Positions 1,275 through 53,713 of a stretch of DNA of 64,000 nt are shown here, one piece after another. Both the position numbers and the translations under genes were made by a program. Source of the stretch: Candidatus Marinacidobacterales bacterium (GTDB lineage Bacteria; Acidobacteriota; Vicinamibacteria; Marinacidobacterales; DATDRI01); NCBI GenBank assembly GCA_965222425.1, contig CBDCTW010000008.1:178248-242247 (forward strand), written 5' to 3'. The notes beneath the pieces were generated by a model. That model did no database searches, was not told the DNA's origin, and saw nothing but the letters and a program-made list of their open reading frames with translations. Numbering within the stretch: the first letter of the stretch is position 1; the number at the start of each line of letters is the position of its first letter.

Positions 1275-2177
1275 CTATTCGGTAGGAGGTTTGGCGGTGG
1301 GAGCGATCGTGACGAGGTCCAGGGGGTTGACGCGGGCCTTGTTGAGCCGGGCGGACCAATGAAGGTGAGGACCGGTAACCCGCCCCGTCGCGCCCACCCG
1401 TCCTATCACCTCGCCGGGTTTCACGACTTGGCCATTCTTGACCGCCATCGATTCGAGATGGCCGTAGAACGTATAAAGTCCGAGGCCATGGTCGAGCACG
1501 ATGGTGTTCCCGGAAAAGAAGAGGTCGCTGGCCATGACGACGCGACCACGTTGCGGGGCACGCACCGGCGTGCCGGCGGGAGCGGGGAAGTCTTCACCAC
1601 TGTGCGGCGAGCGCGGCTGGTCGTTGAGGATTCGTCTCTTGCCGAAGCTTCCCGATCCTTTGACGCCCTTCACGGGTAGTTGGAAGGCTCCTTCCCAGAG
1701 GCGTGCCGCCGTCACCGCTCGAAAGATCCGCAGGAGTTGGTTGGTTTCTCTTCGCGATCTTTCGAGGTCCTCGGCGCTTAAATCGACGAACTTCTTCTGC
1801 ACCGTAATTTTCTGGACCACGAAGTTCCCGTCCCGAATGGTCACCGGAGTGCTGCAGCCTATCTCTTGACCGTTGCTCCGTTTCGATTCAACGGTAAGCG
1901 GAAGTTGGGAGGCCCTACGGCGGAGATCCACACCTAACAAGGCAAGGTGAGAGTCGCCTTCCTGCCAGAAGTGCAGCGACTGGTCGGCCCAGGTAGCTTT
2001 GACCTCCGCGGGGAATGCACTACGGACTTCGAGGAGGATAATGGCGCCTTGGGGCGGTTCTATCGTGCTCAGCGTCAACTCCAAACCGGCCGCACAGTCG
2101 ATCGTCTCCTCGGTCGAGGAGGACGCGACCGGCGAGGTCAATAGGGCAACGGTGAGCACCGCACATGCGGTTCTCAT
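1275..2177 (-). CDS. M23-family (LytM-like) metallopeptidase with an N-terminal signal peptide.
   Basis: Shows the HSGEDF...GTPVRAP...GNTIVLDHGLGLYTFYGHLESMAVKNGQVVKPGEVIGRVGATGRVTGPHLHW motifs that are typical of the M23 family. ATG at 2175-2177. Confidence 0.8.
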   Translation of the reverse strand: MRTACAVLTVALLTSPVASSSTEETIDCAAGLELTLSTIEPPQGAIILLEVRSAFPAEVKATWADQSLHFWQEGDSHLALLGVDLRRRASQLPLTVESKRSNGQEIGCSTPVTIRDGNFVVQKITVQKKFVDLSAEDLERSRRETNQLLRIFRAVTAARLWEGAFQLPVKGVKGSGSFGKRRILNDQPRSPHSGEDFPAPAGTPVRAPQRGRVVMASDLFFSGNTIVLDHGLGLYTFYGHLESMAVKNGQVVKPGEVIGRVGATGRVTGPHLHWSARLNKARVNPLDLVTIAPTAKPPTE

Positions 2178-2397
2178 TACACCCACACTATATCAATAGT
2201 GAGCGGTATCCCTGAACCAGCAAGCTTTGTCTTGGCGTAGCCGATAAAGATCCTCGAAGGTGCTCGGCAGCGCATCCCACATATGGTGGAAACTCGATGA
2301 TGACACGCATTTGGCGCTCCGTCGAACGCCCGACATTGTCAAATTGAAGCGTCGTCCTTGCTCGATGAGCTAGAATAGGAGGGCAGTTGGACTTCGG

Positions 2398-2472
2398 GGG
2401 CGGTTAGCTCAGTGGGAGAGCGCTTGCCTTACAAGCAAGATGTCACAGGTTCAAATCCTGTACCGCCCACCA
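2398..2472 (+). tRNA. tRNA-Val, anticodon TAC.
   Basis: Cloverleaf folded by hand: acceptor GGGCGGT/ACCGCCC, D arm GCTC-AGTGGGA-GAGC, anticodon arm CTTGC-CTTACAA-GCAAG, T arm ACAGG-TTCAAAT-CCTGT, discriminator A, encoded CCA. Confidence 0.85.
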
Positions 2473-4633
2473 GACCCCACGTAGATTGGCCCCCGTCCGG
2501 CTGTTGTACTTTGCCCCAGCGCCAGCTAGGGAGCTTGGGGCCAGCAACTTTACTGTCGGAATTCGACAAATCGAGAGAGCCATTTCAATGCGGCGCAGCT
2601 TGGCCCGACGGGCTCTGTGTGTCCTCTTGACGCTGGCAGCCTGCAGTCCCTTTGTTTGGGCAAAGGACACCGCCATCGCCGCCATTGATGGGCCCGAGCC
2701 GCCCATGCCCCCCGCGGTGCTGAGCCGTGACACCGAGGGCCGTCTCACGCTGCGGGCCACCCGTCTGGCCGAGCCCATCGTCGTCGACGGCCGCCTCGCG
2801 GAGCTCATCTACCGCCAGGTTCCGTCGATGACGGAGTTCATTCAACAGGAGCCCATCGAGGGCGAGCTCGCGACCGAACAGACGGAAGTCTGGGTCTTTT
2901 TCGATGACGACAACATCCATGTCTCTGCCCGCTGCTGGGACAGCCATCCAGAGAGAATGGTGGCCAACGAAATGCGGAGGGACAACCGGAACATACAAAA
3001 CAACGAGAATTTCGCGGTTATCTTCGACACCTTTTACGACCGGCGCAACGGATTCCTCTTCCACACTAATCCGTTGGGGGCGATCTTCGACGCTCAAGTC
3101 ACTGACGAGAGGATTGTCAATTCGGACTGGAACACCGTGTGGGACGTAAAAACCGGCCGTTGGCAACGTGGTTGGCTGGTGGAGATGAAAATCCCATTCC
3201 GGTCGCTTCGCTATAAAGGCGTCGATACCGAGATTTGGGGGATCAACTTCAGGCGCATCGTGAGGTGGAAGAACGAAACGAGCTATCTGACGCCCGTTGC
3301 CGCCGCCTTCCGCCAAGCTGGTATCGCCAAGCTCTCTCAGGGAGCGACAATGGTAGGTCTCGAGACACCCTCGCAGGCCCTCAACCTCGAGCTCAAACCC
3401 TACGCCATCGCCGCGGCCAACACCGATCTGGAAGCCGACCCCCCGCTCGAGAACGACCTCGACGGCGACGTCGGTTTCGATCTCAAGTACGGAGTCCTCG
3501 TGGCTTGACATTCGACTTCACATTGAACACCGACTTCGCCCAAGTGGAGGCCGACGAGCAGCAGGTGAATTTGACGCGGTTCGGTCTCTTCTTCCCCGAG
3601 AAACGTGATTTTTTCCTCGAGGGTAAGGATATTTTTGCTTTCGGTGGAGTCGGCACGAGGCGAGGGTTCGAACGTGCCGATAACACCCCCATCATGTTTT
3701 TCAGTCGGCAGATCGGGCTCTACGATGAAGAGGTGGTGCCCATCAACGCCGGCGCACGGCTCACCGGCCGCGCGGGAGCCTACACGTTGGGCTTACTGGC
3801 GATTCAGACTGATGAGCTCCCGCAACTGGCGATCCCTAAGACGGATTTCGGTGTTGTGCGCGTGAAACGAGACGTGCTTCGCCGCAGCAACATTGGATTC
3901 ATCGGCACGTACCGGTCACCCGTTTTCGAAGCCAACGACACGAACGATTCGAACCAATTGTTTGGCATCGACGGAAACTTCACCTTTTACCAGAACGTGA
4001 ACGTTAGCGCCTACTACGCGCGAAGCGAAACAACCGGTTTGAGTGGGGATAACGCCAGTTATCGCGGCCGCTTCCACTATGGAGGCGATTTATGGGCTTT
4101 CGAGGTCGAGCACTTGGTGGTGGAGGAGAATTTCAACCCTGAGATCGGTTTTTTACGCCGGGAAGACATTGAGCAAAGTTTCGCGGAGCTGCGCTTCAAT
4201 CCCCGCCCACAATGGAGTGACGCGATACGGAAGTTCACTGTCAAAGGGAATTTCGACTACATCAATAATCGCGATGGGCAGCTCGAGTCGCGACGGGCCA
4301 ACTTCTCGTTCGGTATCGATTTCGAGAGCGGTGATCGCTTCTTCAGTTCGTATACCCGGAACTTCGAGTTCTTGGATGAAGAGTTCGACATCACCGATGA
4401 CGTGATCATTCCCTTTGGCGAGTACCGATTCAACCGCTACGAGGCTGGGTACCGATTCGGCCCACAGCGGAGGGTGTCTGGCTTGATCGGCCTAGAGAGG
4501 GGGACCTTCTACAGTGGCGATCGGACCGAGTTGTTCTACTTCGGCCGGTGGGAGCTGACCAAACAGCTGTCCCTCGAGCCTAGTGAACCGCCCCGGGTTT
4601 CCCGGAGACTCCAACTCTTGAGAGGATGGAGTC

Positions 4634-5868
<1,235 letters not shown>

Positions 5869-6203: not shown

Positions 6204-7041
6204 CTAAAACGTCTGGTAGTAGCCGACGTTAAGTATGGGACCCGCCGGCCAGCTTCGCCCGCGGACGCTGACGGGCACCGTGAACTCGATACTCTGCGTG
6301 GGGGAGATCGCGAAGATCACTCCTGGTTCTACGTAAATTATCTCTCGTCGCAGCGTTGCAATGGAGAGCCCGAGCTCGTGGCGTCGAAGCCGTAGAGCCC
6401 GCGAACGAGTCCCTTGAACATGACGGGATCCATCGATAGCCGCCCTCGAAGCTCCAAAAGATCTCGTCTCCCGGATCGATGCCGTTTTCCTCGTTCTCGG
6501 TTCGGAAACGGTAACTTAATTTGCCGTTGACGTAGCCCGGTCGTGGCCACAGAGAGCGGCCCACCTCGACATCGACTTCGAAGTCGTATCGTCCTTCACC
6601 CACGGGCACGATCTCGGCATCGTTGACGAACTCACCGGTAGGAAATTTGACGGCGGCTCCAACTGTGGCAACGACCGTATCCTGAACGAAGTTCCAGTGC
6701 GCCCCTGCTCTGACATCTCCGATTCCGGTGGAGCTTCGGTCGTCGGCGAGATCATCGAATCGGATGTTGTAGACAGGCAGTGGGGCCAGGGCCTCGAAGC
6801 CGGCACCGAGCCCAAGTCGATACTCGAAAAACGCGGCGGTGACTTCGCTTTGTCCGTCGAAGAAATAGGGGATTCTCTCGCCGTCTAGGAAGTAACGCTC
6901 GTCGGTGTTCTGATAGGCGAAGCCGATGGGGGACCAGCTCACGCCTTTGGGATAGACCCACGCGCCCGCGTAGGCCGGCTGTGCCGCGCCAATGAGTGCT
7001 GCGGCCGCCAGAGCTAACGCGGGCAGGAGACGAGACTTCAT
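6204..7041 (-). pseudogene. Outer-membrane beta-barrel protein with a signal peptide (MKSRLLPALALAAAALIGAAQPAYA). The C-terminal third can only be read through two further frame changes.
   Basis: Frame A reads ...EIFWSFEGGYRW, frame B reads DPVMFKGLVRGLYGFDATSS, and frame C reads ...IIYVEPGVIFAISPTQSIEFTVPVSVRGRSWPAGPILNVGYYQTF ending at stop 6204-6206. The track ORF 6229..7209 ends in an Arg-rich out-of-frame tail. Confidence 0.45.
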
Positions 7042-7334
7042 CTCGAGATGCCCCGATACTTGCCGTCCTGCCTTCTCATTATCAAGAACTACCTCGAGGC
7101 CTGAGAAAAGTGTCGGAAATCTAACAGCCCGGTGAGCCCAACTGCGGCAACTATAGTAGTAGTATCGGAGGAAGGGACCCATAGTACCATGATTCGCAGC
7201 CATCCTCACCGTAACTCTGTGCGGCGCCGGTTTCCTTTCCTCAACGCCAACGACGTACCGTGAATGGCGAGGTCCAGTTTCGAGGTCTCTAAGTAGGCAG
7301 AAATAGTGTACGATCCGACCTATCTCCGAAAATC

Positions 7335-8393
7335 ATGGCCAAGCAGCGCGTCGCGGTTTTGTACGATATCTGGTGGGACGATGACGATGCGCCGCCAGAG
7401 AAGCCGCGCAGCGGCAAACCGCGCAGCGGCAAACCGCGCAAACGTGAGAAGGAAGTTCACGAAGAGGTGTACGCCACTCTCAAGAAGCTAGGCTACCAAC
7501 CTTTCTATTGTGTTCTGGACGGCGAGCCCACATCGCTCGCCAAATTAGCCTCGTCCGAGGCGGCGCTCATTTTCAATCTTACCGAGTCCTACGCCGGCGA
7601 CGACACCAAAGACATGCACATTGCCGCGTTTTTGGACCTGATGAGAAAGAAGTACACCGGAGGGGGTCCTCACGCCTTGCATCTGGCCCAGGACAAGACA
7701 CTAGCGAAAAAGCTTCTTTCGTTTCACGGCATTCGGACTCCTTATTTCGTAGTTTCCTATCGGGGCAAGACCGATTGGGCCGATGATATTTCATTTCCTT
7801 TGATCGTGAAGCCTCAGGCCGAGGACGGCTCCATCGGGATCGACGCCGGTTCGGTGGTCACGAGCGTCAAAGAGCTGATGCAGCGGATCGACTACATTCA
7901 CACCCGCTTCGACAGCCCCGCCTTGATCGAAGAGTACATCGAAGGCCGCGAGATTTATGTAGGCGTGGTAGGGAACGAAAGGCCAGAAGCCCTGCCGTTG
8001 GTCGAGCTGGACCTTTCTCGGGTTCCCGGCGATGTGCCGAAGATCGCGGGTACCGAAGTCAAATGGTTGAAGGAGACCAAACTCTATAAAGTCACCGAGG
8101 CTTTCATGCCCGACGATCTTCCGGTTGAGACGGAGAAGTTTCTAAAGGAGACCGCGGTGGCGGCGTACCAGGCATTGAAGTGTCGTGACTACGGTCGGGT
8201 CGATATTCGACTGGCCAAGGACGGCACGGTGTACGTTCTCGAAGTGAACCCCAACCCATGGCTCGCTTCGTTCACCGAGTTCTCGATGGCCTGGCGAGGC
8301 ACCGGGCGCACGTATCCGCAGCTCATTCAATACATCGTGGATATGGCTTTCGCCCGGTACGCGCAGCCCGCGCCGGTGCAAGCTCCAGAGTGA
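7335..8393 (+). CDS. D-alanine--D-alanine ligase-like ATP-grasp family protein.
   Basis: ATP-grasp motifs: ...FPLIVKPQAEDGSIGI...EEYIEGREIYVGVVG...GRVDIRLAKDGTVYVLEVNPNP.... N-terminal low-complexity region with PRSGKPRSGKPR. Confidence 0.65.
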   Translation: MAKQRVAVLYDIWWDDDDAPPEKPRSGKPRSGKPRKREKEVHEEVYATLKKLGYQPFYCVLDGEPTSLAKLASSEAALIFNLTESYAGDDTKDMHIAAFLDLMRKKYTGGGPHALHLAQDKTLAKKLLSFHGIRTPYFVVSYRGKTDWADDISFPLIVKPQAEDGSIGIDAGSVVTSVKELMQRIDYIHTRFDSPALIEEYIEGREIYVGVVGNERPEALPLVELDLSRVPGDVPKIAGTEVKWLKETKLYKVTEAFMPDDLPVETEKFLKETAVAAYQALKCRDYGRVDIRLAKDGTVYVLEVNPNPWLASFTEFSMAWRGTGRTYPQLIQYIVDMAFARYAQPAPVQAPE

Positions 8394-8415
8394 TCGGTTT
8401 ACTGATACAGGAGCA

Positions 8416-9381
8416 CTAGCTAAGCGACATCGCCGGATCCCCGAACAGGTGATAAATGCTGAGGAGCTCGAGGTAGCCACCGGACTCGGCAAACTTCGAC
8501 TGCGCGGCGAGGATGGCGTCTCCGAGAGTCGTGTGTCCTCCGTGTAAGAGCTCGGTGAGCAAGAGACGGTGATAGAAGTGAGCGGGTCTATCGAGACTCT
8601 CTCCACTGGGGGAAAAAGCAGCGATGATGCCCTTGCCGTCCGCCTTCAAGAGCGTCTCCGATAAGGAATCGTAAGTCGGGAACTGGAAGTAGCCGTTCAA
8701 GCAGTTCATGGTGAGAAGCAAGGGGTATTGCGCGGGATAGTCCAAAGACTCCACGTGGTCGGTGCGCAAGATGTTCTCGGACCACAAATTTATAGCACCG
8801 TGACCGATGTAGCTGACCAACGAAGCCCCCTCGCCGAAAGCATTGAGAATGGCGTCGTGAGTGGCGGCGGTCCCCAGGTCGTCGAGATAGATCTTGTGAA
8901 CGTCGTTGCCTGAGAGAACCGTGGCGGCTAACTCTTCGGCATGGGCCTCGAAGTCCCCGGCTCTTGGGTCGGGCCGGTCGGCAATGAGCACCGCCCGACC
9001 ATGAAGTCCCATACTTTCCGTTTCATAAGCGACGATCTTGTTCACCATGGCCTGGGCTTCTTCGAGATTGGCGGCCGGGAGTCTTCCAATCGTGAGGTCG
9101 GGCAGCAAGTCGTCCCCGTTGACCGCGGCATAGGCGGGGTCGGAAGCGGTCCAGAGGTAGTTGGTGTTCAACGGATACGGGGGTACCTGGTTTTGGACAC
9201 CCCATCCGAAGTAGTCCTTGAAGTCGAACGTTGCGTCCCCGAGGAGCAAGACGTATCGAGGAGGAGTCCTCCAGTGATGGTATGCGTGCTCGAGGAAGCC
9301 CCGTATCGCTTCAGGCCGGGTCTCGCCATGACCGAACTCGGAGTAGATCTGCTCGATGGGAACGGCGAGTGGGGTGAGACC
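8416..9381 (-). pseudogene. Peptidase C25 (gingipain-like) family gene, truncated at its 5' end.
   Basis: ...PLAVPIEQIYSEFGHGETRPEAIRGFLEHAYHHWRTPPRYVLLLGDATFDF...HGAINLW...LLLTMNCLNGYF. The frame is open upstream only to a TAA at 9382-9384, and the sequence beyond that is unrelated. Confidence 0.55.
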
Positions 9382-9467
9382 TTATGGGGAGGGCGGGACG
9401 CCTTTGTCAACCCAACTCCTTCGCAGGTAGGGCCTTGCGGGAGGGGTGGGCGAGAGGCAGGCAGGCA

Positions 9468-9767
9468 CTAGGCCTTCGGACACTCTTCGATGGCGTGGAT
9501 GCTCGAGAGTTGTTCCACGAATTGCGACACGTCAGCCTCGGCCTGCTCGGTGCTCACATCGAACTCGTCGACGATGACCGCGCAGATGTCGCGGACGGAG
9601 CGCTTCCCATCGACGAGCTCGTAGACTCGAGCAGCCACTTCGTTCAACGTATAGAGGTTTTTCATTTCTGCGACGCTATCTCGGAGCGGCACGAGAATCA
9701 CCTCGTCCACAATCTTGCGCGAGGCCACGCGATCTTTGAGGCAGTAGATCTTGTCCAAATCCATCAT
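9468..9767 (-). CDS. PqqD-family protein (RiPP recognition element, peptide chaperone), stand-alone.
   Basis: MMDLDKIYCLKDRVASRKIVDEVILVPLRDSVAEMKNLYTLNEVAARVYELVDGKRSVRDICAVIVDEFDVSTEQAEADVSQFVEQLSSIHAIEE. About 100 aa with the PqqD consensus pattern. The track ORF extends upstream to 9911 with a low-complexity N-terminus. Confidence 0.65.
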   Translation of the reverse strand: MMDLDKIYCLKDRVASRKIVDEVILVPLRDSVAEMKNLYTLNEVAARVYELVDGKRSVRDICAVIVDEFDVSTEQAEADVSQFVEQLSSIHAIEECPKA

Positions 9768-9945
9768 CGTCGAGCCATTTCGATTAGGTGATGAGGAAGG
9801 CCAGGCCGGTAGCGGTGATGGTCGAGAGGCCCACCAGCATCCACAGGCCAAGACACCGCCGACGGTCTTTTTCGCGTGCCTGGCTGGTGTTCGCCCGGCC
9901 AGTTTCTCCATTCATTCGATGCAGGCCCCGCATCCCCATCACGAC

Positions 9946-10155
9946 TCACGTCTCGCTCGAAGCCTGAACCAACCCCGAGAACGCAATCAACAGCGGAACG
10001 GCAAGCACCAGACGGGCGAGCCTTGGAGCGTCCGTCCCCACGAGCGCGAACAGGATGAGAAGGCTTGCCCCCAGGCCAATGGCCCCGAATCGCCAACGCC
10101 GGCGCACTCCGCTCGGGCCGATGTTGCGTCGTCCCGGAACGTAGTTGGCTTCCAT
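9946..10155 (-). CDS. Small membrane protein (69 aa) with a basic N-terminus and two predicted transmembrane helices.
   Basis: MEANYVPGRRNIGPSGVRRRWRFGAIGLGASLLILFALVGTDAPRLARLVLAVPLLIAFSGLVQASSET. ATG at 10153-10155. Confidence 0.4.
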   Translation of the reverse strand: MEANYVPGRRNIGPSGVRRRWRFGAIGLGASLLILFALVGTDAPRLARLVLAVPLLIAFSGLVQASSET

Positions 10156-10347
10156 AGAAGCCTGAGTTTAACGGAATCGAGCCTCGTGTGCTACGGCCGC
10201 CTGGCCAAGTCAAGTTGTGGCACCAGCATATTTTGGCGGCCTAACGGTTCCGTTGATTGGAGCAACCCCATATTGGGGTGCGGCAGGATCTGAGAGCCGC
10301 CTAGCTAGCAGGTCAGTCCCGTAATTCAGGACTGGAGGAGAGTGTCG

Positions 10348-10848
10348 TTACCAAATCCAGACCCTGACCTCCTCGTCGGCGGTGCGGACGTGAACCAAGT
10401 CCGTGTTCGAGATCTGTCCCAACGCCCTTACGACGTCGCAAGCCTCGAAGGCTTCACCGTCGTAGTGGTGAATCAACTCCGCCACCGCTTCCAGGGGCAC
10501 GATGACCGAGACATCTTCGTGCTGGCTGTGTACGGTCACCTCCAGATCACTCCCGAATTTCGAGATGAGGACCGTCTCGTCGCCATCCTGCACGCTAACG
10601 AAGTCTCCATCGGGAGCGATGATGAGCTCCTCGAGAACTCTTTCCGCGGCTTCCTGATACTCTGCGAACTCGGGGCAGGGGATGCGGGTAAACTCTTCTG
10701 GAGCGAAGGCGACCGCTGCTCTCGTGACGACCAAGGGCACTGGAATCACGAAATGGTTTCCATCTGCTGTCACGTCCACGACGATGTAGCTCGCGCTCGC
10801 TAACATGGCGACGAAGGCCAAGGGTAGGACGGCGGCCACTTTGAACAT
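10348..10848 (-). CDS. Secreted or membrane-anchored acidic repeat protein, paralog B.
   Basis: N-terminal hydrophobic segment MFKVAAVLPLAFVAMLASA. The C-terminus ...DLVHVRTADEEVRVWIW parallels paralog A's ...DIVRVDDGKSRVRIWV. Confidence 0.45.
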   Translation of the reverse strand: MFKVAAVLPLAFVAMLASASYIVVDVTADGNHFVIPVPLVVTRAAVAFAPEEFTRIPCPEFAEYQEAAERVLEELIIAPDGDFVSVQDGDETVLISKFGSDLEVTVHSQHEDVSVIVPLEAVAELIHHYDGEAFEACDVVRALGQISNTDLVHVRTADEEVRVWIW

Positions 10849-10850
10849 CT

Positions 10851-11426
10851 TTATCTCCCTTCGTCGACCCAGATGCGAACGCGACTCTTGCCGTCGTCCA
10901 CTCGAACGATATCGCCTCGATGATCCTTGAGCTGAGCGACCGCTTCCCGCAGGTTGAACTGTTCTCCCTCGCCAGAAAGCAAGGCATCCACGACCGCCAC
11001 GGGCACCTCGACATGTACCTCTTCTTTACCCGTCTCGTCGTCAGTCTGATCGACCTCGATGACGATGTGCTCGCCCCGGCGCAGGATGTGGACGCGTTCA
11101 CCTTGTTTCTCCACCGTAACGAACTCTTCCTCGCCTGCGGCACGAAACTCTTGCCACAGTCTTCTCAGATCGCTAATGGAAAGACCGTGGTGATCGAGGT
11201 GGCCTTGGGCCTCCTCGAGCGCCTCGTCAGGAACGATGTCGATGGCGACTTCCACGAGTGATAAAGGCAGGTTGATGTTTACTTTCTCGGCGTCATCACC
11301 CTCGCTGTTCACCTGTATGTGAATCCAGGGAGTCTTCTCCTTCGTGGGTTCCTGGGCGTTCGCGATGGTGCTCAGGACCACGAGAAGGGCCGCTAAGAGG
11401 GCAATACCGTAGGCGGGTCGTTTCAT
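10851..11426 (-). CDS. Secreted acidic protein with internal tandem repeats, paralog A.
   Basis: Signal peptide MKRPAYGIALLAALLVVLSTIANA. Two internal repeats (IHIQVNSEGDDAEKVNINLPLSLVEVAIDIV... and VHILRRGEHIVIEVDQTDDETGKEEVHVEVPVAVVDALL...). Its stop lies 2 nt before the start of paralog B. Confidence 0.45.
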   Translation of the reverse strand: MKRPAYGIALLAALLVVLSTIANAQEPTKEKTPWIHIQVNSEGDDAEKVNINLPLSLVEVAIDIVPDEALEEAQGHLDHHGLSISDLRRLWQEFRAAGEEEFVTVEKQGERVHILRRGEHIVIEVDQTDDETGKEEVHVEVPVAVVDALLSGEGEQFNLREAVAQLKDHRGDIVRVDDGKSRVRIWVDEGR

Positions 11427-11644
11427 GGGCTTCCTCCATACGCCGGCGATTCCGGCGACTCTCATCCCCATATACGGAGGTCCGAGCGCCAATGTTCACG
11501 GTTTTTCGCGGGGCCCCTGAGCGCCGCCTGGCCAGGTCCGGATGAAGCAACATTTCAGTTTGGCGGCCAGAACTAGCTCCGTCGGTGCACCAAGCTCGCT
11601 GCCGGGATCCCGAAGAGAGCCCCCGCCACGATCGTGAATCCTAC

Positions 11645-12225
11645 CTAGAAAACGAGTTGAGGGAAGAACCCCAGCCACATAAAGCTCGCCCACCAACCCA
11701 TCTCCGGGAATCCGGGGGGGATGGCGTCGTAGTGAGTGCCCCACGATCCGTGCATGGCCAGGGCCATAATGAGGACCACCGGAAGACGTGCGCCCAACCC
11801 GTAAGCAAGAACCGTCTTGAAAAACTGCGGCCAACCGAGATATTGGAGGCCCGCGGTCAGTGCAGCGAGCAACCAGATGAACCCCAGCGCCCCAAGGAAA
11901 TTCTTTTGAACGAGAAACGCCTGAACGGGACCACCGGCCAGGAGAAGGAAGAAATCGATCGCGGCGAAGCCGATCGCCCTTCCCCAGCTCGAAGGACCAT
12001 CGCCGTTTTTGGCGAGGTGTAAAGCGAAATAGATTCCGAAGATCGGTGCCAGCCAGGTGATGCCGATAACCGCCCCGACCCCCCCCGCCTCCGGATTAAA
12101 AAAAAGGTCGACCAGCTGAGAAGCTCACCCGTCAAACGCCAAAGCGTGATGACCAGACTGATGAACACGGGGACGATCACGAGCCGGATGGTGGGCGAGC
12201 CGCCGCCCAAGGCCGCCTGGTCCAT
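11645..12225 (-). CDS. Polytopic membrane protein of unknown function, frameshifted within C8 and A8 homopolymer runs.
   Basis: The N-terminal frame MDQAALGGGSPTIRLVIVPVFISLVITLWRLTGELLSWSTFF ends near 12079-12115. The true frame continues as ...GAVIGITWLAPIFGIYFALHLAKNGDGPSSWGRAIGFAAIDFFLLLAGGPVQAFLVQKNFLGALGFIWLLAALTAGLQYLGWPQFF.... Confidence 0.4.
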
Positions 12226-12306
12226 GGTCCCTCCTAGTCCTCCTCAGCCTAGCACGCGGGCTACACCTATCCTGTTAGATGAGACGGGATCGAGTGGAAA
12301 AAGTTC

Positions 12307-14655
12307 CTACTTTCCCTGGGAGAGTGGAATCGTTTTCTCCACCGGAGCTAGGCATCGAGCGTCGTCACACGCTTGGTAAACGAGCCGAAGGCCGGACTCG
12401 CCCGAGTCGACCTCGCCGCGGATCGAGACCGAGCCGCTGTACACGGAAAGCGCCGTATCAGAAAAAGAGAAGTTGAAGATCTCGCCCTCTGGGTAACGAA
12501 CGTTCCGTACTTTTCCTTGGACCTCGGTAGGTATGAGGTACTTGAGTGAGGGCGGATTGGCGTTGATGTGCCAGCCCTCACGGACCGTGAGGCGAAGCTC
12601 GAAGGACCTCCAACCCGCGGCGTTACTCTCCGCTTCATCCAAGACGAGCTTCGTCCTCACCAACTTCTTCGCAAGCTGCGCCGGCGATTCTGGTTCCTGC
12701 TTCTTCGGTGGGTCTTGTTGGAAAGACATGGAAGTCACCGTGGCCGGAGCCTCACCACCACGATGATATCGGTCGAGCGCCAGTGCCATGGTGGGCGCAT
12801 TAGCCCTTTCTTCGAGCTCCGACCCGAAGGCCTTCATCGCGGCCTCTGCGCGTTGCCGGTAAACGGGTTTTCCGGTGTGCTCGGCGAGGCTCAGAAGCGC
12901 GAGAGTGGCGACGCCGTTTCCCGACGGGATGGCACTATCGAAGATCGTCTTCGATTGAAACAGGAGATGGGGATTGCCTTCGCTCAGGAAATAGCCGCCG
13001 CTCGGATCGCGCAGGCGCCGCTCCATCTCCTCCGCGGTGCGCTCCGCCGACTCGAGCCAGCGCGCATCCCCGGTGGCCTCGTAGAGCGCGATCAACCCCT
13101 TCATGAGAAAAGCGTAGTCATCGAGGAAGGCAAAAATCTTGGCCTTGCCTCCACGCCATGCGTGTAAGAGCGTTCCGTCTTCGTCTTTTAGGTTTTCCAG
13201 GAGGAACGTCGCGGCACTTCGGGCCGCTTCCAGATAACGCGGCTCGCGCAAAAGAAGGCCACACCGGGCCATGGCGGCGATCATCATCCCGTTCCAATCG
13301 GTCAGCACCTTGTCGTCCACGAAAGGGAATTTTCTCTCGGCCCGTATTTCCCGGAGGCGATTCAAATGCGGTTCCATCCTGTCGAGGAGCTCCTCGCGGC
13401 TCGACCCGCTCCGCTCCGCGTGTGCGGCGAGCGTGTCGGTGAGGTAAAGCGTGTATTTCTCGCCCTCGAAGTTCGGCTCTCCACCGAAACCGAAAATGGG
13501 AGCGAGCAAATCGTACCCATCTTCTCCGAGCGCTTGTCGAAGTTCTTCACCGGTCCAGACATAATAGGCGCCTTCTTCGGCATCCGTTTCAGCGTCGATC
13601 GCGGACTTGAAACCGCCGCCCTCGAGGTGCATCTCGTGCAGGATGAAATCCATCGTGCCTCGGGCAAGGCGGCCGAGCTCGCGATCGCCGGTTGCGCGGG
13701 CGGTTAACGCGAGGAGCTCTGCTAGGTGGGCGTTGTCATAGAGCATTTTCTCGAAGTGGGGAATTCGCCACTCGGCGTCCAGCGTGTAGCGATGAAAGCC
13801 GCCGTCGAGTTGATCGTAGATGGCACCTTGACCCATCTTGAGGAGGGTCTCGATGACCATGCGACTGGCCTCGGCATCACCGGTTTCGGCCCGGTCCCAC
13901 AACAGAAAGAGGTTGGAAGGAGAAGGGAATTTGGGTGCCCCGCCGAAACCGCCGTTGGTTTCATTGAATCGCTTTTTCAGATTTTCAACAACTCTTTCCG
14001 AGCTATTCACGGAGGGCACAATTGGGGCCGGCTGTCGCTTATCGGCGATGATCGAGCGCATGGCTTCCGAAAGCTTTTCGGCGGATTTTTCGACGTCCTC
14101 GCGTTTAGTTGTCCAAAGTTCTTGAATACGGTTCAGCACCGTCGGGAAGCCCATTAGCCCCCCACGATCCTCCGGAGGGAAATAGGTTCCGGCGAAGAAC
14201 GGCTTCAACTCCGGCGTGAGAAATACCGAATTAGGCCATCCACCGCTCTGACGTATCAACTGGGTGGCCATCATATAGATCTCGTCGAGATCGGGTCGTT
14301 CCTCTCGGTCTACCTTGATGCTGATGAACCATTCATTCATCAACTTGGCGATCTCGGGATTCGAGAATACCTCACGCTCCATCACGTGGCACCAATAGCA
14401 GGTGGAATAGCCGACCGACAGAAAAATGGGCTTGTCTTCTTTTCGCGCCTTCTCGATGGCTTCATCTCCCCACGGATACCAATCGACCGGGTTGTGCGCA
14501 TGGAGCAAGAGGTAGGGGCTGGACTCGTTGGCGAGGCGGTTGGTCGGCCCGTCGGCTTCGTGTGGGAGGGGCGACTCTAGCTCGGACTGCGACTGCGCTT
14601 GGCAGGTGAAAAAGGTCATGGACAGCAAAGCTGTCATGAGTCCGCGTGATCTCAT
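12307..14655 (-). CDS. Thioredoxin-domain protein of the DUF255/YyaL family (about 783 aa) with a signal peptide and an extra C-terminal domain.
   Basis: [74 protein letters not shown] at 14653-14655 ([16 protein letters not shown]...). Confidence 0.75.
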
Positions 14656-14698: not shown

Positions 14699-15151
14699 TT
14701 AACGTACGCCACCCGAGCGAACCAGTGTTCGAGTCGAGATGGCTCCGAGGGCCAGGGCGGCAAGTATCCAGAAAGGCCACAACGGCTGTAGGAACAAGCC
14801 CCAGAGGAGCAAGACGCCAACTGCTACGAGCCCTGCCAATCGGAAGCTGGTGTAAAGAATCATTACCCGCCGCGAGTCGACGATCAACAAGAAGTCGGTC
14901 GGCAGCCACACGAGCAAGAGCTCGTTATAGCGGAGCTCGGCAAGTGGAGAGATGGCCGCTAGCAACACAAGGAGGACACCGACGGTTCCGGAGAGAGCTC
15001 CGAACACGAACCGAAGCGCGCGGGATGCAGCGGGCGTCCCCAACACGATGAGCAATGCGCTCCCCAAGCCGATTCCCAGCGCCAGTCCCCGACGGTGAGT
15101 GACGAGCCATACCACGGGCCATGCCCCAGGCCATGCCCTGCCTTGGTGCAC
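14699..15151 (-). CDS. Hydrophobic membrane protein of unknown function. Its 5' end runs into the left inverted repeat of the IS5-family element, so it is possibly disrupted.
   Basis: Four or five predicted transmembrane segments. The start of the ORF lies inside the IS inverted repeat (15139-15156). Confidence 0.3.
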
Positions 15152-16225
15152 AACTCGCGATCTCGGTCCACAATTGTCCTGTACTCGCGGATACGATGTT
15201 CCCCATGAGCATTTTCAAACGCACTCAGCGGAAGTATGTGAAGAAGGCCTATCGCGTGAGGAATTGGCGTGAATATGAGGCGGGTCTACGCAACCGCGGG
15301 AGCCTGACCGTCTGGGTCTCGCTCACCGCCGGCAAGCTTGTGAACTGGGACGCGCCCCGGCCGAGGAGGAGGAAACCGGGCCGTCAACGCAAGTACTCGA
15401 ACCACGCCATCGAGACGGCTGTCACCCTGGGCATGGTGTTTCATCTGTCGTCTAGGCAGAGCGAGGGATTGCTGCGGTCGTTGTTCGCTCTGATGAAGCT
15501 AGACAATGATGTGCCCGATCACACCACGATCTTGAGGCGCAAGGCGAAGCTGGGTAAGGTCCCCTTCTACCAAGACAAGCAGAAGACGCCGTTGCACATC
15601 TTGATCGACAGCAGCGGTCTCGCTGTCCACGCCGGCCAGCTGCGCAGAGCACAAAAGAGCAGGGACTATCGCAAGCTCCATCTGTGTGTCGACGAGCAGA
15701 GTGGCGAAGTCATCGCCTGCGAGCTGACCAGCAAAAGAGCCCGCGATTCATCGCGGGTTGCATCGCTTGTCGGACCGATCGACACTCCCATCTCATCGGC
15801 CAGAGCTGACACCGCATACGACGCCAGCGGCGTCTATGAGGCAATCGAGAATCACAGCGCTCATCGCTCGCCGAGGGTGCTGATACCGCCGCGCAAGGGC
15901 GCCCAGCTCGCATCGGGGCCGGCGAGCCGCCGACAGCGTAATCGCAACATTGCAGCACAAGCTCGGCTCGGCAAACGAAAGTGGCACACAGAATCGGGCT
16001 ACAGCAAACGGAGCAAAGTCGAGACAACGTTCCATCGCTACAAGGCTATCGTGGGCTCAACAATGCGAGCGAGAGGGTTGGCGGCACAGAGAGTCGAGGC
16101 AAGGATCGGGTGCAAGATTCTCAACACCATGACGGCGCTCGGGATGCCTGATAGCAAGATGATCGGATGATGGGAGTCGGGGCCAAGCGAGCTCTCGGCC
16201 TCTATCGGAGTTGTGCACCAAGGCA
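15139..16225 (+). mobile_element. IS5-family insertion sequence (about 1087 bp).
   Basis: Perfect 18-bp terminal inverted repeats, TGCCTTGGTGCACAACTC at 15139-15156 and GAGTTGTGCACCAAGGCA at 16208-16225. No clear target duplication found. Confidence 0.75.
15196..16170 (+). CDS. IS5-family (DDE_Tnp_1) transposase.
   Basis: MFPMSIFKRTQRKYVKKAYRVRNWREYEAGLRNRGSLTVWVS...HAIETAVTLGMVFHLSSRQ.... Confidence 0.75.
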   Translation: MFPMSIFKRTQRKYVKKAYRVRNWREYEAGLRNRGSLTVWVSLTAGKLVNWDAPRPRRRKPGRQRKYSNHAIETAVTLGMVFHLSSRQSEGLLRSLFALMKLDNDVPDHTTILRRKAKLGKVPFYQDKQKTPLHILIDSSGLAVHAGQLRRAQKSRDYRKLHLCVDEQSGEVIACELTSKRARDSSRVASLVGPIDTPISSARADTAYDASGVYEAIENHSAHRSPRVLIPPRKGAQLASGPASRRQRNRNIAAQARLGKRKWHTESGYSKRSKVETTFHRYKAIVGSTMRARGLAAQRVEARIGCKILNTMTALGMPDSKMIG

Positions 16226-21412: not shown

Positions 21413-22812
21413 GGTGATGTCTTAAGATTCCTGTCAAAGAAAAACGATGTATGGTTCCCCAAGCCCAAACCCGTCCCCGTCATGGGGACAGAAAAGGAGA
21501 ACCATACATCATGGGAAAGGTACTACCGAGTCAGCGATTGCTCAAGCAGTTCGAGGAACAACTGGTATTTGGGGAGATGAATCTCTCGGAGATCGTCCGG
21601 TCGGGAGCTCAGATGATGCTTCAATATGCGTTGGAGCGCGAGGTGACGGAGGCGTTGGGTCGAAATTACTATGAGAACGCTCCGGCAACGACGAAGGAGA
21701 AGGGACGACGCAACGGGTATGAGTCGCATCGGGTCCTCACGGGCGAGGGAGCGGTAACGGTGCAAGTGCCGCAGGTACGAGAAACAGAGAAGGTGTTTCA
21801 GTCAAAGATTCTCGACGCCTACGTGAGCCGGACCGAGAAACTCGATGAACTGATCGCGCGGATGTACGTCCACGGGATGTCGACGCGTGACATTGAGGCG
21901 ACGTTCGCGGACGTGCTGAGCGGCACGGGTGTCTCGAAGTCGGTGGTGAGCCGGGTCACACGGTGTCTGTCGGAGGATTTCGAGGCGTTTCGAAAACGGG
22001 ATCTCTCGAACGAGAAGCTGTTGTATCTCGAGCTCGACGGCACGTACCTGCGCTACCACCAAGGAGCGGAGAGGAAAGAGCCCATCCTCGTTGCGACCGG
22101 CTATCGCGCTGATGGGACGCGAGTTCTTCTTCATATCGGTGTCGGCAACCGAGAATCCTACGAGAACTGGAAGGGGTTCTTGCAGGAGATGGTGGCCCGA
22201 GGAATGAGGGAGCCGTTGCTCATCGTGACGGACGGGAATCCTGGAGTGCTCAAAGCGATCGCAGAGGTCTTCCCTCGAAGCCTCAAGCAACGTTGCCAGA
22301 AGCACCGCCTCGAGAACATCCTGGGCAAGGCTCCGAAGGAAGTGCGCGACGAACTCAAGGCGGCCATCCTTGAGTCGTTCCATGCGAACAGCTACGAGCA
22401 AGGGCTGAAGAAGGGTCGGGAGGTGATCGCTCGGTACCGCCAACGATTCCCGAGCGCGATGAAGTGCATGGAAGAGACCCTCGAAGCGTGTCTTCAGGCG
22501 CTGCGCCTTCCTGCGGCGCATCACAAAAGGCTTCGCACGTCGAATCTACTTGAGCGCACGTTCGGAGAGCACAAACGTCGCACAAAGGTCATTCCTCACT
22601 TCTTCACCGAGGAGGCCGCGATGAAACTCTCGTTCGCTGTGCTCTTGGCCGTCGCAAACAAATGGCGCGGCGTGAGGATGGATGTCTTCGCCGCTAGGAA
22701 AGTCGAGGAGCTTCGCAACGAGCTTCTCCCGCAAGGCACGTCGGAGGAATCAGCAGCTTAACCGAGCGCGGGGAACCGTACGAAGATTTGACAGGAAAAT
22801 TAAGACTTGACC
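21413..22812 (+). mobile_element. IS256-family insertion sequence, copy A (1400 bp).
   Basis: Inverted repeats GGTGATGTCTTAAGATTCCTGTCAAAG and TTGACAGGAAAATTAAGACTTGACC. Perfect 8-bp target duplication GAGGTATG at 21405-21412 and 22813-22820. Confidence 0.9.
21511..22761 (+). CDS. IS256-family (Mutator-type) transposase.
   Basis: MGKVLPSQRLLKQFEEQ...LYLELDGTYLRYHQG...LIVTDGNPGVLKAI...QRCQKHRLENILGKAP.... Confidence 0.9.
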   Translation: MGKVLPSQRLLKQFEEQLVFGEMNLSEIVRSGAQMMLQYALEREVTEALGRNYYENAPATTKEKGRRNGYESHRVLTGEGAVTVQVPQVRETEKVFQSKILDAYVSRTEKLDELIARMYVHGMSTRDIEATFADVLSGTGVSKSVVSRVTRCLSEDFEAFRKRDLSNEKLLYLELDGTYLRYHQGAERKEPILVATGYRADGTRVLLHIGVGNRESYENWKGFLQEMVARGMREPLLIVTDGNPGVLKAIAEVFPRSLKQRCQKHRLENILGKAPKEVRDELKAAILESFHANSYEQGLKKGREVIARYRQRFPSAMKCMEETLEACLQALRLPAAHHKRLRTSNLLERTFGEHKRRTKVIPHFFTEEAAMKLSFAVLLAVANKWRGVRMDVFAARKVEELRNELLPQGTSEESAA

Positions 22813-22827
22813 GAGGTATGTGCCGAA

Positions 22828-39093: not shown

Positions 39094-39261
39094 TGCTACC
39101 TCCTCCTCATGTCGCTCGGGCTGCGAATATGACGTGCCGCTCACACGTCGCCATCGAGTCGCGGCCGTGGAGAACGTTTACATGGTTACATCAATTTGAA
39201 TCGGGTACTACCGCACCGTATTGCATCAAGGTTGTCCAACAGTGGTGACTGGGTAGCGAAC

Positions 39262-43946: not shown

Positions 43947-45040
43947 TGTGCCTTCTATTTATTCATCCGCACGCACCAAACTTGATTAATCTCCGGTCTG
44001 CCAGCACCATGCCGGCATGATTTCGTCGTTTGTTCGCGCTCTCATCTCTGCCTTCAAGGCTCGTCGCGAGCTGGCTCTCGAGAATGTCGCTCTTCGGCAG
44101 CAGCTCGCCGTCCTCCGCCGTTCCGTGAAACGGCCGCGGCTCTCGAATGCCGACCGCGGGTTTTGGGTGCTGTTGCGCAGAATCTGGACTGACTGGGAGA
44201 GCGTCCTCGTCATCGTGAAACCTGAGACGGTCATCCGCTGGCACCGTTGTGGGTTCAGACGATATTGGACTTGGAAGAGCCGACGGCGTAGGCCCGGACG
44301 ACCAGGCGTCGCTCCCGAAATACGTGAGCTGATACGGAACATGAGCAGGGCCAACCCTCTCTGGGGAGCTCCCCGCGTGCATGGCGAGCTGGCGAAGCTA
44401 GGCATCTCCATTTCCCAGGCAGCCGTCTCCAAGTATAGGGTTCGCCATCGCATGCCACCGTCCCATACTTGGCGGAGCTTTCTCGATAATCATGTAAAGG
44501 ACTTGGTGTCGCTCGACTTTTTCACTTTGCCGACCGCAACCTTCAGAGTTCTGTTCATCTTCATCGTCCTTCGCCACGACCGTCGCCGTATCGTTCATTT
44601 CAATGTCACCGAACATCCTTCTGCCGAGTGGACGGCGCAGCAAATGGTCGATGCTTTTCCATGGGACACGGCGCCTCGGTACCTGGTACGGGATCGAGAC
44701 CAGACCTACGGAGCGTACTTCGATACTCGCGTCGACGGTCTCGGGATAGAGCAGGTCCTTACCGCACCGCGCTCCCCGTGGCAGAATCCATTTGTCGAAA
44801 GGATAATCGGCTCCATTCGACGTGAGTGTCTCGACCATGTGATTGTCCTCGACGAGCGGCACCTGAGGCGAATCCTACGCAAATACGTCGACTACTATCA
44901 TTCGTGCCGGACTCATTTGTCGCTTGAGAAGGACGCGCCCGAGCCTCGCCGAGTAGAGTCACCGGCGATGGGCAAAGTCAGTGCCATTCCAAAGGTCGGT
45001 GGTCTCCATCATTGTTACACTCGACGCGCTGCTTGAGTCC
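43947..45040 (+). mobile_element. IS481-like insertion sequence, family E. The left end and the transposase are present, but the right end is not recognisable.
   Basis: Left end CCTGTGCCTTCTATTTATTCATCCGC.... The matching right-end motif (...GCGGATGAATAAATAGAAGGCACAGG) is seen only at 19899-19923 and 55438-55462. Confidence 0.55.
44017..45036 (+). CDS. Transposase with helix-turn-helix and rve integrase-core domains (IS481-like).
   Basis: ...[65 protein letters not shown].... Confidence 0.75.
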   Translation: MISSFVRALISAFKARRELALENVALRQQLAVLRRSVKRPRLSNADRGFWVLLRRIWTDWESVLVIVKPETVIRWHRCGFRRYWTWKSRRRRPGRPGVAPEIRELIRNMSRANPLWGAPRVHGELAKLGISISQAAVSKYRVRHRMPPSHTWRSFLDNHVKDLVSLDFFTLPTATFRVLFIFIVLRHDRRRIVHFNVTEHPSAEWTAQQMVDAFPWDTAPRYLVRDRDQTYGAYFDTRVDGLGIEQVLTAPRSPWQNPFVERIIGSIRRECLDHVIVLDERHLRRILRKYVDYYHSCRTHLSLEKDAPEPRRVESPAMGKVSAIPKVGGLHHCYTRRAA

Positions 45041-52428: not shown

Positions 52429-52478
52429 TGAACCGCCCCGGGTTTCCCGGAGACTCCAACTCTTGAGAGGATGGAGTC

Positions 52479-53713
<1,235 letters not shown>

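What the first reader, a model, noticed from the sequence alone, without database searches (positions are those of the whole stretch)
9381..11426. Stand-alone PqqD-like peptide-binding protein clustered with a small membrane protein and two tandem paralogous secreted repeat proteins
Four co-oriented minus-strand genes form a compact cluster.
- A secreted acidic protein built from internal tandem repeats, paralog A (10851-11426).
- A paralog of it, B (10348-10848), whose start lies 2 nt after A's stop.
- A 69-aa protein with two transmembrane helices (9946-10155).
- A PqqD-family protein (9468-9767), the peptide-binding chaperone domain of RiPP pathways.

No radical-SAM enzyme, lasso peptidase or cyclase, YcaO protein or recognisable precursor peptide is present. 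Immediately downstream, the locus abruptly joins a 5'-truncated C25 peptidase gene at about 9382, so the original context may have been removed by rearrangement. A PqqD-like protein linked to large secreted repeat proteins, not to RiPP enzymes, is an unusual association. It could be the remnant of a peptide-modification system or an unrecognised use of the fold.
Basis: partly seen in the sequence, partly recalled or inferred. Interest (0 to 1): 0.6.

Follow-up and report, generated by a model that had tools for sequence, protein, structure and literature searches.

The report
Stranded peptide-binding PqqD beside secreted paralogs
This is a patchwork of unrelated gene sets in a decaying acidobacterial chromosome region: an uncharacterised pair of secreted paralogs, two small membrane proteins, and a peptide-binding PqqD protein that lost its nearby substrate-peptide gene to a roughly 13-14 kb deletion.

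Summary
All four ORFs are present. The 99-aa protein is a true PqqD/RRE by HMM and by predicted fold. A and B are paralogs, each an internal duplication of a ~75-aa unit. A C25 peptidase gene is cut off at 9367-9381. A fifth conserved small ORF (51 aa) lies between the 69-aa protein and PqqD.

The cluster is a mosaic.
- A+B is a self-standing module restricted to Acidobacteriota, with about 1650 sequence clusters, no Pfam family and no solved-fold match. About 90% of species representatives carry it without PqqD.
- The two small membrane proteins travel with other membrane genes, not with PqqD.
- PqqD belongs to a subfamily whose sister clade sits in PqqD / radical-SAM-SPASM / precursor / HprK-like cassettes.

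A homologous Cys-rich precursor lies next to PqqD in the window's closest relatives, inside an island with a giant C25 protein. The window has deleted that island.

The B-to-PqqD adjacency is real inherited synteny, seen in about 30 loci. But three different insertions have invaded the junction, and PqqD has been destroyed independently in three relatives while A and B persist.

Verdict: an orphaned RRE, not a new use of the fold. Interest is moderate.

The parts
10851..11426 (-). Paralog A. A secreted acidic 191-aa protein made of two tandem ~75-aa beta-beta/alpha-alpha/beta-beta units. It belongs to a large unannotated Acidobacteriota family.
10348..10848 (-). Paralog B. 166 aa with an N-terminal hydrophobic signal or anchor. 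It is always encoded immediately after A.
   Evidence: 24% identity to A, E 2e-6. B lies immediately downstream of A in about 43 of 59 species-representative loci.
9946..10155 (-). 69-aa protein with two TM helices (TM69).
   Evidence: Conserved ORF in the window, L002, L011 and L159. In L011 it follows the c26 membrane gene and precedes the 412-aa membrane gene, with no A/B or PqqD between them. Only weak sub-threshold HMM hits.
9784..9942 (-). 51-52-aa ORF with a C-terminal TM helix (sm51).
   Evidence: Called as a gene in relatives. Conserved in the window, L002, L011, L075 and L159. No match to the precursor-family HMM.
9468..9767 (-). Discrete PqqD-family RiPP recognition element (RRE), 99 aa. 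Intact, but without a partner enzyme or precursor nearby.
9367..9410 (-). Deletion junction (9367-9381) and, just upstream, a promoter-like remnant: TTGACA at 9405-9410, 18 nt, then CATAA(G) at 9381-9386. In the relative L002 this site precedes the 412-aa membrane-protein gene.
   Evidence: blastn: the window is collinear with L002 to 9382 (= L002 9999). C25 homology to L155/L159 resumes at 9366. 15 nt are unassigned and there is no IS.
8416..9366 (-). 3' remnant of a giant LamG/beta-helix/C25 (PorU-like) protein gene, roughly the last 320 codons of 1900-3200. It has no start codon and no signal peptide. Pseudogene.
   Evidence: Pfam C25 190 bits, profile positions 70-374. 74% nucleotide identity to the 3' end of the L155 and L011 C25 genes. 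Full-length genes of 1924-3278 aa in relatives.
11645..12225 (-). Disrupted homolog of a 225-aa polytopic membrane protein (c26) that sits between DsbH and A in relatives.
   Evidence: Split into 122-aa and 75-aa ORFs, against an intact 225-aa gene in L002. This could be a true pseudogene or indel errors in a low-coverage assembly.
7335..8393 (+). Context: a convergent Ddl-family ATP-grasp gene, part of the inherited syntenic block downstream of PqqD.
   Evidence: Pfam Dala_Dala_lig_C. NCBIfam 137 bits against a cut-off of 243. Same position in L012, L019, L068, L097, L099, L111 and others. Retained where PqqD is lost.

Best explanation
The locus is a mosaic of three gene sets, not one system.

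(1) A and B form a self-contained two-gene module found across Acidobacteriota. They are paralogous, Sec-exported, acidic proteins of about 170 aa, and each arose by tandem duplication of a ~75-aa unit. Their biochemical role is unknown. I infer that they act together in the periplasm or cell envelope.

(2) The 69-aa and 51-aa membrane proteins belong with the flanking membrane-protein genes: c26 upstream and, in relatives, a 412-aa polytopic protein downstream.

(3) The PqqD protein is a discrete RiPP recognition element. By homology it binds the leader of a specific precursor family as an added beta-strand and presents the Cys-containing core to a maturase. The family consensus is Y-x-K-P-E-I-x-K-V-x-L-x-P-E-E-A-V-L-x-x-C-K-T...C...G-S. 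In the sister clade the maturase is an adjacent radical-SAM/SPASM enzyme. In this acidobacterial lineage no maturase is adjacent.

The closest relatives keep a homologous precursor gene next to PqqD, inside an island: 412-aa membrane protein, Wzz/tyrosine kinase, precursor, giant C25 protein. In the window a clean deletion of about 13-14 kb starts 85 nt past the PqqD stop and ends inside the C25 gene. It removed the precursor and the rest of the island.

The window's PqqD is therefore a stranded RRE. It is either a relic or it serves partners encoded elsewhere. Its position after A-B is inherited gene order, not evidence that it works on A or B.

Shown: the domain and fold assignments, the gene orders, the deletion boundaries, precursor homology, and recurrent PqqD loss.

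Inferred: leader binding, co-transcription, and lack of functional coupling to A/B.
For: PqqD identity.

A-B independence:
- Distant A homologs keep B but have unrelated flanks and no PqqD.
- Of 59 species-representative A loci, about 43 have B next and only 5 have this PqqD.
- Neighbour clustering finds only B widely conserved.
- A-only loci are followed by a TadA-like deaminase.

Sister clade:
- About 45 metagenomic loci, plus L072 and L073, show PqqD followed within 300 nt by rSAM/SPASM.
- A 55-aa precursor lies about 1.37 kb downstream, followed by a ScmC/HprK-like protein.

Precursor homologs in the window's relatives:
- L002/L003/L004/L013, L155, L156 and L159 carry one, HMM E 1e-33 to 1e-35, always just upstream of the giant C25 gene.
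- None is found in the 64-kb window.

Deletion: collinearity with L002 ends at window 9382, and the 3' end of the C25 gene begins at 9366.

Invaded junction. The gap between B and PqqD holds one of the following:
- nothing, 17-107 nt, in 17 loci;
- a rhodanese, in 8-12 loci;
- TM69 plus sm51, in the window and L002;
- the whole 11-kb island, in L159.

Recurrent loss:
- L031 keeps only PqqD residues 1-29.
- L024 keeps only residues 81-97.
- L014 keeps nothing.
- A, B, the rhodanese and the ATP-grasp gene remain in all three.

Leader motif: A, B, TM69 and sm51 do not match the precursor HMM.

No rSAM or other RiPP enzyme among the window's ORFs.
Against: - In 17 loci PqqD follows B on the same strand with only 17-107 nt between them. 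That arrangement looks operon-like and has persisted down to about 52% PqqD identity. Such persistence usually signals a functional link.
- The window's PqqD ORF is intact and 90-96% identical to relatives, so it is not visibly decaying.
- Even intact relatives have no rSAM within 10 kb. The 'RiPP pathway' in this lineage is therefore incomplete as far as can be seen, and PqqD's real partner there is unknown.
- Whole genomes could not be scanned, so partners acting in trans are untested.
- The AF2 model of the N-terminal beta region of PqqD has low confidence.
Confidence: 0.6

Rival explanations
1. PqqD is still functional in trans. A precursor of the same family and a maturase (rSAM/SPASM or other) are encoded elsewhere in this genome, and the discrete RRE serves them from a distance. 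The deletion removed only one of several precursor copies.
For: The ORF is intact and highly conserved. The residues invariant across the rSAM-linked and acidobacterial clades are retained. One related 1.6-Mb contig carries two precursor paralogs 500 kb apart. The 25-29 A-B-PqqD loci without the island have no precursor within 6-10 kb, yet most keep PqqD intact.
Against: No rSAM of the sister-clade type was found in any acidobacterial locus held here. PqqD has been destroyed in three relatives. The rest of the genome could not be searched.
Confidence: 0.22
2. A, B and PqqD form a true functional operon. The cytoplasmic PqqD acts as a chaperone or recognition factor for the A/B pre-proteins, or for a process they carry out. 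That would be a non-RiPP use of the RRE fold.
For: Same-strand adjacency with 17-107-nt gaps in 17 loci, and with one small inserted gene in about 10 more. This spans PqqD identities of 52-67%. No terminator-like site lies between A and PqqD in the window.
Against: A-B occur without PqqD in about 90% of species representatives. PqqD was deleted three times with A-B kept. A and B are exported and PqqD has no signal peptide. Neither A nor B carries the leader motif. In L159, L155 and L011 PqqD lies 11 kb from A-B or is unlinked from it.
Confidence: 0.1
3. The join at 9367-9381 and the frameshifts in the neighbouring gene are artefacts of a low-coverage long-read metagenome assembly. The real genome carries the full island.
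For: The matching ENA contig is labelled 4x coverage. The adjacent c26 gene has several frame disruptions.
Against: The junction is clean and collinear on both sides. The same order appears in the window and in contig L001. The region is full of IS copies and other fragments, consistent with real decay.
Confidence: 0.05

Closest known systems
Discrete RREs of radical-SAM/SPASM RiPP cassettes (PqqD with PqqE; ScmD of the SynChlorMet cassette; the GeoRSP PqqD-family chaperone)
   Same: Same domain and fold. It is about 49% identical to proteins encoded directly upstream of an rSAM/SPASM enzyme, a Cys-rich precursor and an HprK/ScmC-like protein. 13 invariant residues are shared. The precursor leader, YxKPEIxKVxL, resembles the PqqA-type leader; that comparison is from my own knowledge, not a test.
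   Different: No rSAM, precursor or HprK-like gene lies in the window or within 10 kb in acidobacterial relatives. It scores below every NCBIfam equivalog cut-off: PQQ_PqqD 38 against 46, ScmD 31 against 100, GeoRSP 22 against 100.
Lasso-peptide B1 proteins (TbiB1, TfuB1)
   Different: No B2 protease or lasso cyclase nearby. NF033536 scores 32 bits against a cut-off of 80.
'Orphan' discrete RREs reported by RRE-Finder (bioRxiv 10.1101/2020.03.14.992123)
   Same: That survey found about 1500 lasso-type discrete RRE hits that do not co-occur with lasso enzymes, some of them sitting next to rSAM genes. The present protein is this kind of case.
   Different: Here the history can be traced: an rSAM-linked sister clade, capture downstream of A-B, a precursor-bearing island, then a deletion.
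Peptidase C25 / PorU-like type IX sortase domain proteins
   Same: The fragment at 8416-9366 matches the catalytic part of C25, 190 bits. The full-length relatives score 174 bits on the PorU model.
   Different: Only about the last 10-15% of the gene is left. The PorU model cut-off (420) is not met even by the full-length relatives.
LolA / NTF2-like / PRELI curved-sheet 'cup' proteins (for A and B)
   Different: Scores are at noise level. Foldseek finds nothing: E>=0.25, TM<0.25. No sequence family matches. This is a resemblance only.

Membership tests
PqqD / RiPP recognition element (Pfam PF05402) | Sequence matches the family HMM above the gathering score | tested here: met
   63.1 bits against 23.4, E 3e-17, profile positions 1-65 of 67
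PqqD / RiPP recognition element (Pfam PF05402) | Winged-helix RRE fold like the solved RREs | tested here: met
PqqD / RiPP recognition element (Pfam PF05402) | Binds the leader of a cognate precursor peptide | not testable with these tools
   Inferred only. A conserved precursor family co-occurs with this subfamily in about 45 rSAM loci and 7 acidobacterial loci.
RRE-dependent RiPP gene cluster | A precursor gene and a modifying enzyme are encoded next to the RRE | tested here: not met
   No precursor-HMM hit in the 64-kb window. No rSAM, YcaO, lasso or other RiPP enzyme among the annotated ORFs.
PQQ biosynthesis PqqD (TIGR03859) | Equivalog score, and a pqqA/B/C/E neighbourhood | tested here: not met
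   38 bits against a cut-off of 46. No pqq genes in the window.
Lasso peptide B1 (NF033536 / NF033530) | Model cut-off, plus an adjacent B2 protease and a lasso cyclase | tested here: not met
   32 against 80 bits and 30 against 70 bits. No such neighbours.
SynChlorMet cassette ScmD (TIGR04248) | Equivalog score, plus ScmC/E/F neighbours | tested here: not met
   31 bits against 100. Even the sister-clade rSAM and ScmC-like proteins fall below the SCM cut-offs: 73 against 400 and 25 against 125.
Peptidase C25 (PF01364) | A complete, translatable gene with the catalytic domain | tested here: not met
   Domain match of 190 bits, but only profile positions 70-374. The frame is closed by TAA at 9382-9384. 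There is no start before TTG 9249 and no signal peptide. Full-length relatives are 1924-3278 aa.
A/B family (unnamed; defined here) | About 170-190 aa, an N-terminal signal, two tandem ~75-aa units, and the motifs PWIHV and VVDALLSGEGE | tested here: met
   Alignment A1 with 14 invariant columns. hhalign self-match 95.6%. No Pfam, NCBIfam or PDB family.

The most novel reading that the evidence does not exclude
In this Vicinamibacteria lineage a discrete RRE has been uncoupled from its radical-SAM partner. It now works, with a conserved four-Cys precursor, inside a cell-envelope island with no rSAM at all. The island holds small membrane proteins, a 412-aa polytopic protein with no known family, a Wzz/BY-kinase and a giant PorU-like C25 surface protein, and it is flanked by the secreted A/B pair. 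That would be a new RRE-dependent peptide pathway, in which the unknown membrane protein or the C25 domain does the processing. The window would be a decayed copy of it.
Probability: 0.12. Interest if true: 0.7.

Novelty: new variant of a known kind. Interest (0 to 1): 0.4.

Why it matters
For genome mining, this is a worked example of how a PqqD/RRE hit can mislead. Here the RRE is real, but it is stranded next to unrelated genes by descent and by deletion.

Three by-products may matter more than the window itself.
- A/B is a large Acidobacteriota-specific family of secreted, internally duplicated proteins. It has about 1650 clusters at 50% identity, no annotation and no solved-fold match.
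- There is an apparently unannotated rSAM/SPASM RiPP family. Its precursor is well defined, with 1525 clusters and the consensus YxKPEIxKVxLxPEEAVLxxCKT...C...GS. It is accompanied by an HprK-like protein.
- The same precursor and RRE lie beside a giant C25 protein, with no rSAM, in Marinacidobacterales-like genomes. That is the one truly odd association and it can be tested directly.

Tried and rejected
- **A/B function.**
  - Pfam and NCBIfam gave no family.
  - A lenient Pfam scan of all 34 aligned members gave no consistent family.
  - A PDB profile search gave nothing below E 0.3.
  - The afdb50 library was unavailable.
  - The 1.84-billion-protein profile search returned only close family members in its top 150, so no bridge to a known family appeared.
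- **sm51 as a precursor: rejected.** It has a C-terminal TM helix, does not match the precursor HMM, and travels with TM69 and the 412-aa gene, not with PqqD.
- **A small ORF in 10156-10347: rejected.** No start-to-stop ORF is conserved, and 10243-10347 does not even align with L002.
- **The 311-aa radical-SAM gene 6 kb downstream of PqqD in L155-L158: rejected as a partner.** It shows no significant similarity to the sister-clade maturase, and it sits among housekeeping genes.
- **The convergent Ddl-like ATP-grasp gene as PqqD's partner: rejected.** It is convergent, and it is retained where PqqD is deleted.
- **Promoter, terminator and Rfam scans of 7000-13000.** Nothing above background.
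- **Literature.** 'SynChlorMet' returned no papers. I found no paper on this PqqD context.
- **TM69 as a YgaP/DUF2892-like hairpin.** I recalled this resemblance, which would be notable because a rhodanese occupies the same slot in other genomes. No HMM supports it, so it is left as an untested lead.
Full report
**Observation**

The minus strand carries five ORFs:
- A, 10851-11426, 191 aa.
- B, 10348-10848, 166 aa, starting 2 nt after A's stop.
- A 69-aa protein with two TM helices, 9946-10155.
- A 51-52-aa ORF with a C-terminal TM helix, 9784-9942.
- A 99-aa protein, 9468-9767.

A and B are paralogs, with 24% identity and E 2e-6. Family HMMs cross-hit at 1e-17 to 1e-25. Both are acidic, pI 4.8 and 4.3, with N-terminal signal-like segments. 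Each is a tandem duplication: hhalign of the N-half against the C-half gives 95.6%, E 1e-8. The AF2 topology is bb-aaa-bbbb-aa-bb at pLDDT 77.

Downstream, a Peptidase_C25 reading frame is open from 9381 to 8416. It is closed upstream by TAA and has no start before TTG 9249. It covers only positions 70-374 of the Pfam model.

**Organism and state of the region**

Close relatives are MAGs named Candidatus Marinacidobacterales, and PqqD hits carry the name Vicinamibacteria. Marinacidobacterales is an order of class Vicinamibacteria, phylum Acidobacteriota.

The window is rich in IS copies and repeats. The gene just upstream of A is a homolog of a 225-aa membrane protein. It is broken into pieces.

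**A and B are their own module**

- A has 548 homologs at E<=1e-3 in the word-indexed search, none with a Pfam domain.
- The exhaustive profile search finds 1650 representative clusters.
- Distant homologs at 46-51% identity keep B 7 nt downstream. Their flanks are unrelated and they have no PqqD.
- A scan of one genome per species gave 59 loci, all Acidobacteriota: Marinacidobacterales, Bryobacterales, Vicinamibacterales and Thermoanaerobaculia.
- About 43 of those loci have B next. Only 5 have this PqqD downstream.
- All-against-all clustering of neighbours finds only B widely conserved.
- A-only loci are followed by a TadA-like deaminase.
- No known family or fold was found.

**PqqD seen from its own side**

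The subfamily is tight: 96 clusters, all at 43% identity or more. A metagenome scan plus the other loci gives three contexts.

(i) PqqD at 44-53% identity to the window.
- It is followed within 300 nt by a radical-SAM/SPASM enzyme.
- A ~55-aa peptide lies about 1.37 kb downstream, then a ScmC/HprK-like protein. There are about 45 such loci, including L072 and L073.
- None of these proteins reaches an NCBIfam equivalog cut-off.

(ii) PqqD at 52-67% identity.
- The order is A, B, PqqD on one strand.
- B-to-PqqD gaps are 17-107 nt in 17 loci. A 103-aa rhodanese lies in between in 8-12 loci.
- A convergent Ddl-like ATP-grasp gene usually follows, then DUF5916 genes.

(iii) PqqD at 70-100% identity, the window's own group.
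- PqqD adjoins an island made of a 412-aa polytopic protein with no family, an opposed Wzz/tyrosine kinase, a small ORF, and a giant LamG/beta-helix/C25 protein of 1900-3300 aa.

**The small ORF in the island is the cognate-type precursor**

- The L002 ORF reads MQRKETSKREMRKQYSKPEIRKIALEPQECLAAGCKTLTIGATGSGTSCDLMSCSSLGS.
- The L155, L156 and L159 versions align with the peptides of the rSAM cassettes, for example MSLKKKEYRKPEIRKVRLAPEEAVLAACKTAGTLRRQGSKCDNLQGACINKFQGS.
- A family HMM hits them at 1e-33 to 1e-35. It hits 28 further cassette peptides at 1e-7 to 1e-15.
- The family has 1525 clusters, all unnamed.
- The HMM finds nothing in the 64-kb window or in the flanks of the class (ii) loci. 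It does not match A, B, TM69 or sm51.

**What happened in the window**

In L002, which is 84% identical to the window in A, the order is: DsbH, c26, A, B, TM69, sm51, PqqD, 412-aa, reversed Wzz, precursor, giant C25.

The window is collinear with L002 through PqqD and 85-89 nt beyond, to window 9382 (= L002 9999). From 9366 it matches the last 944 nt of the giant C25 gene. The 15 nt between are unassigned, and no IS is present.

The left breakpoint falls in the -10 element of a promoter-like site, TTGACA-N18-CATAAT, which in L002 precedes the 412-aa gene.

About 13-14 kb is therefore missing, by comparison with L002. The missing stretch includes the precursor gene.

**How firm is the A/B-PqqD link?**

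It is inherited, not accidental. About 30 independent loci place PqqD as the next gene, or the next but one, after B. Four things argue against functional dependence.

1. The junction has been invaded in three different ways.
   - By a rhodanese.
   - By TM69 plus sm51.
   - By the entire 11-kb island, in L159, where the order is A, B, TM69, sm55, 412-like, reversed Wzz, precursor, C25, PqqD, PHP, M23.
2. In L011, the genes DsbH, c26, TM69, the 53-aa ORF and the 412-like gene are contiguous, with no A/B or PqqD between them. PqqD follows the C25 gene elsewhere in that locus. TM69 and sm51 therefore belong with the membrane genes.
3. PqqD has been destroyed three times while its neighbours persist.
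   - L031 keeps residues 1-29.
   - L024 keeps residues 81-97.
   - L014 keeps nothing.
4. A and B are exported, whereas PqqD has no signal peptide.

One point runs the other way. The 17-107-nt gaps and their long persistence are operon-like. I therefore leave about 10% for a true A-B-PqqD function.

**Mechanism**

By homology with solved RREs, the protein should bind the YxKPEIxKVxL leader as an extra strand and hand the Cys-rich core to a maturase. This step is inferred, not shown.

In the sister clade the maturase is the adjacent SPASM enzyme. In the acidobacterial lineage none is adjacent. The 311-aa rSAM gene 6 kb away in L155-L158 is unrelated. The window's other large ORFs include no RiPP enzyme.

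The 13 residues invariant across both clades are kept in the window's protein. It may therefore still serve partners encoded elsewhere, a rival I put at 0.22. Otherwise it is a relic.

**Verdict**

The 'one cluster' and 'new use of the fold' half is not supported.

It is a new variant of a known kind: a discrete RRE stranded in a non-RiPP neighbourhood. The truly unexplained items are two. One is the function of the large A/B family. The other is the pairing of precursor, RRE and giant C25 protein with no rSAM in the relatives. Both lie partly outside this window.

Noticed in passing
L072 8001-9734; L073 6928-10403; L106-L152 (about 45 loci): An apparently unannotated RiPP cassette: HD-domain protein, PqqD, rSAM/SPASM, a ~55-aa Cys-containing precursor ending in GS, and an HprK/ScmC-like P-loop protein. 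The precursor family has 1525 clusters, all named 'hypothetical', in Nitrospinota, Aminicenantes, Deltaproteobacteria and sediment metagenomes. No component reaches an NCBIfam equivalog cut-off.
   Followed up: partly
L002 9614-16576; L155 3-10263; L159 5563-17009: The same precursor family and RRE lie beside a giant LamG/beta-helix/PorU-like C25 protein, a Wzz/BY-kinase and a 412-aa polytopic protein with no known family. No radical-SAM gene lies within 10 kb. PqqD sits at the 5' edge of this island in L002 and at the 3' edge in L155 and L159.
   Followed up: partly
L003 and L159 (same contig ERZ28669063:ctg79911, about 500 kb apart): Two diverged copies of the whole ~20-kb region (Lnb_N, DsbH, c26, A, B, TM69, small ORF, 412-aa, Wzz, precursor, C25, PqqD) lie on one 1.6-Mb contig. 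Precursors are 61% identical and PqqD about 78%. This is either an old segmental duplication or a chimeric assembly.
   Followed up: no
L019 7173-7484; L031, L068, L100, L103, L111, L112, L124; also L014 and L024: A 103-aa single-domain rhodanese (CHSGVRS active-site loop) is inserted between B and PqqD in many loci. It stays after B even where PqqD is lost. Other thiol-redox genes recur nearby: a DsbH-like thioredoxin of ~790 aa and PF06491 Disulph_isomer.
   Followed up: partly
window 11645-12225 (-): The homolog of a conserved 225-aa polytopic membrane protein (c26) is broken by several frame disruptions. The matching ENA contig is labelled 4x coverage, so sequencing indels cannot be excluded.
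   Followed up: partly
window 8416-9249 (-): The C25 remnant still contains the caspase-like catalytic motifs (SYIGHG and TMNCLNGYF). It lies just downstream of the surviving -35 element of the deleted gene's promoter-like site, so a truncated product is conceivable.
   Followed up: no
window 21413-22813 and 39261-40661; 4582-4881 and 52427-52726; 15121-16170; 44017-45036; 50533-51678: The window has a very high density of IS elements and repeats. There is a 1401-nt inverted IS pair at 99% identity, several rve/DDE transposases, and fragmented DUF5916 genes at 2486-4755. This fits a genome region undergoing rearrangement and gene decay.
   Followed up: partly
window 9946-10155 (-): The N-terminal motif of TM69 (VPGRRNIGPxEVRRR) followed by a two-TM hairpin reminded me of the YgaP/DUF2892 membrane domain, whose E. 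coli host protein carries a rhodanese. No HMM supports this (only weak DUF2157/SLATT hits).
   Followed up: no
window 1275-2186 (-): A Peptidase_M23 gene lies about 7 kb downstream on the same strand as PqqD. In L155, L159 and L011, M23 follows PqqD after a single PHP_C gene. This suggests the ATP-grasp/DUF5916 block and the PHP/M23 block have been shuffled around PqqD.
   Followed up: no
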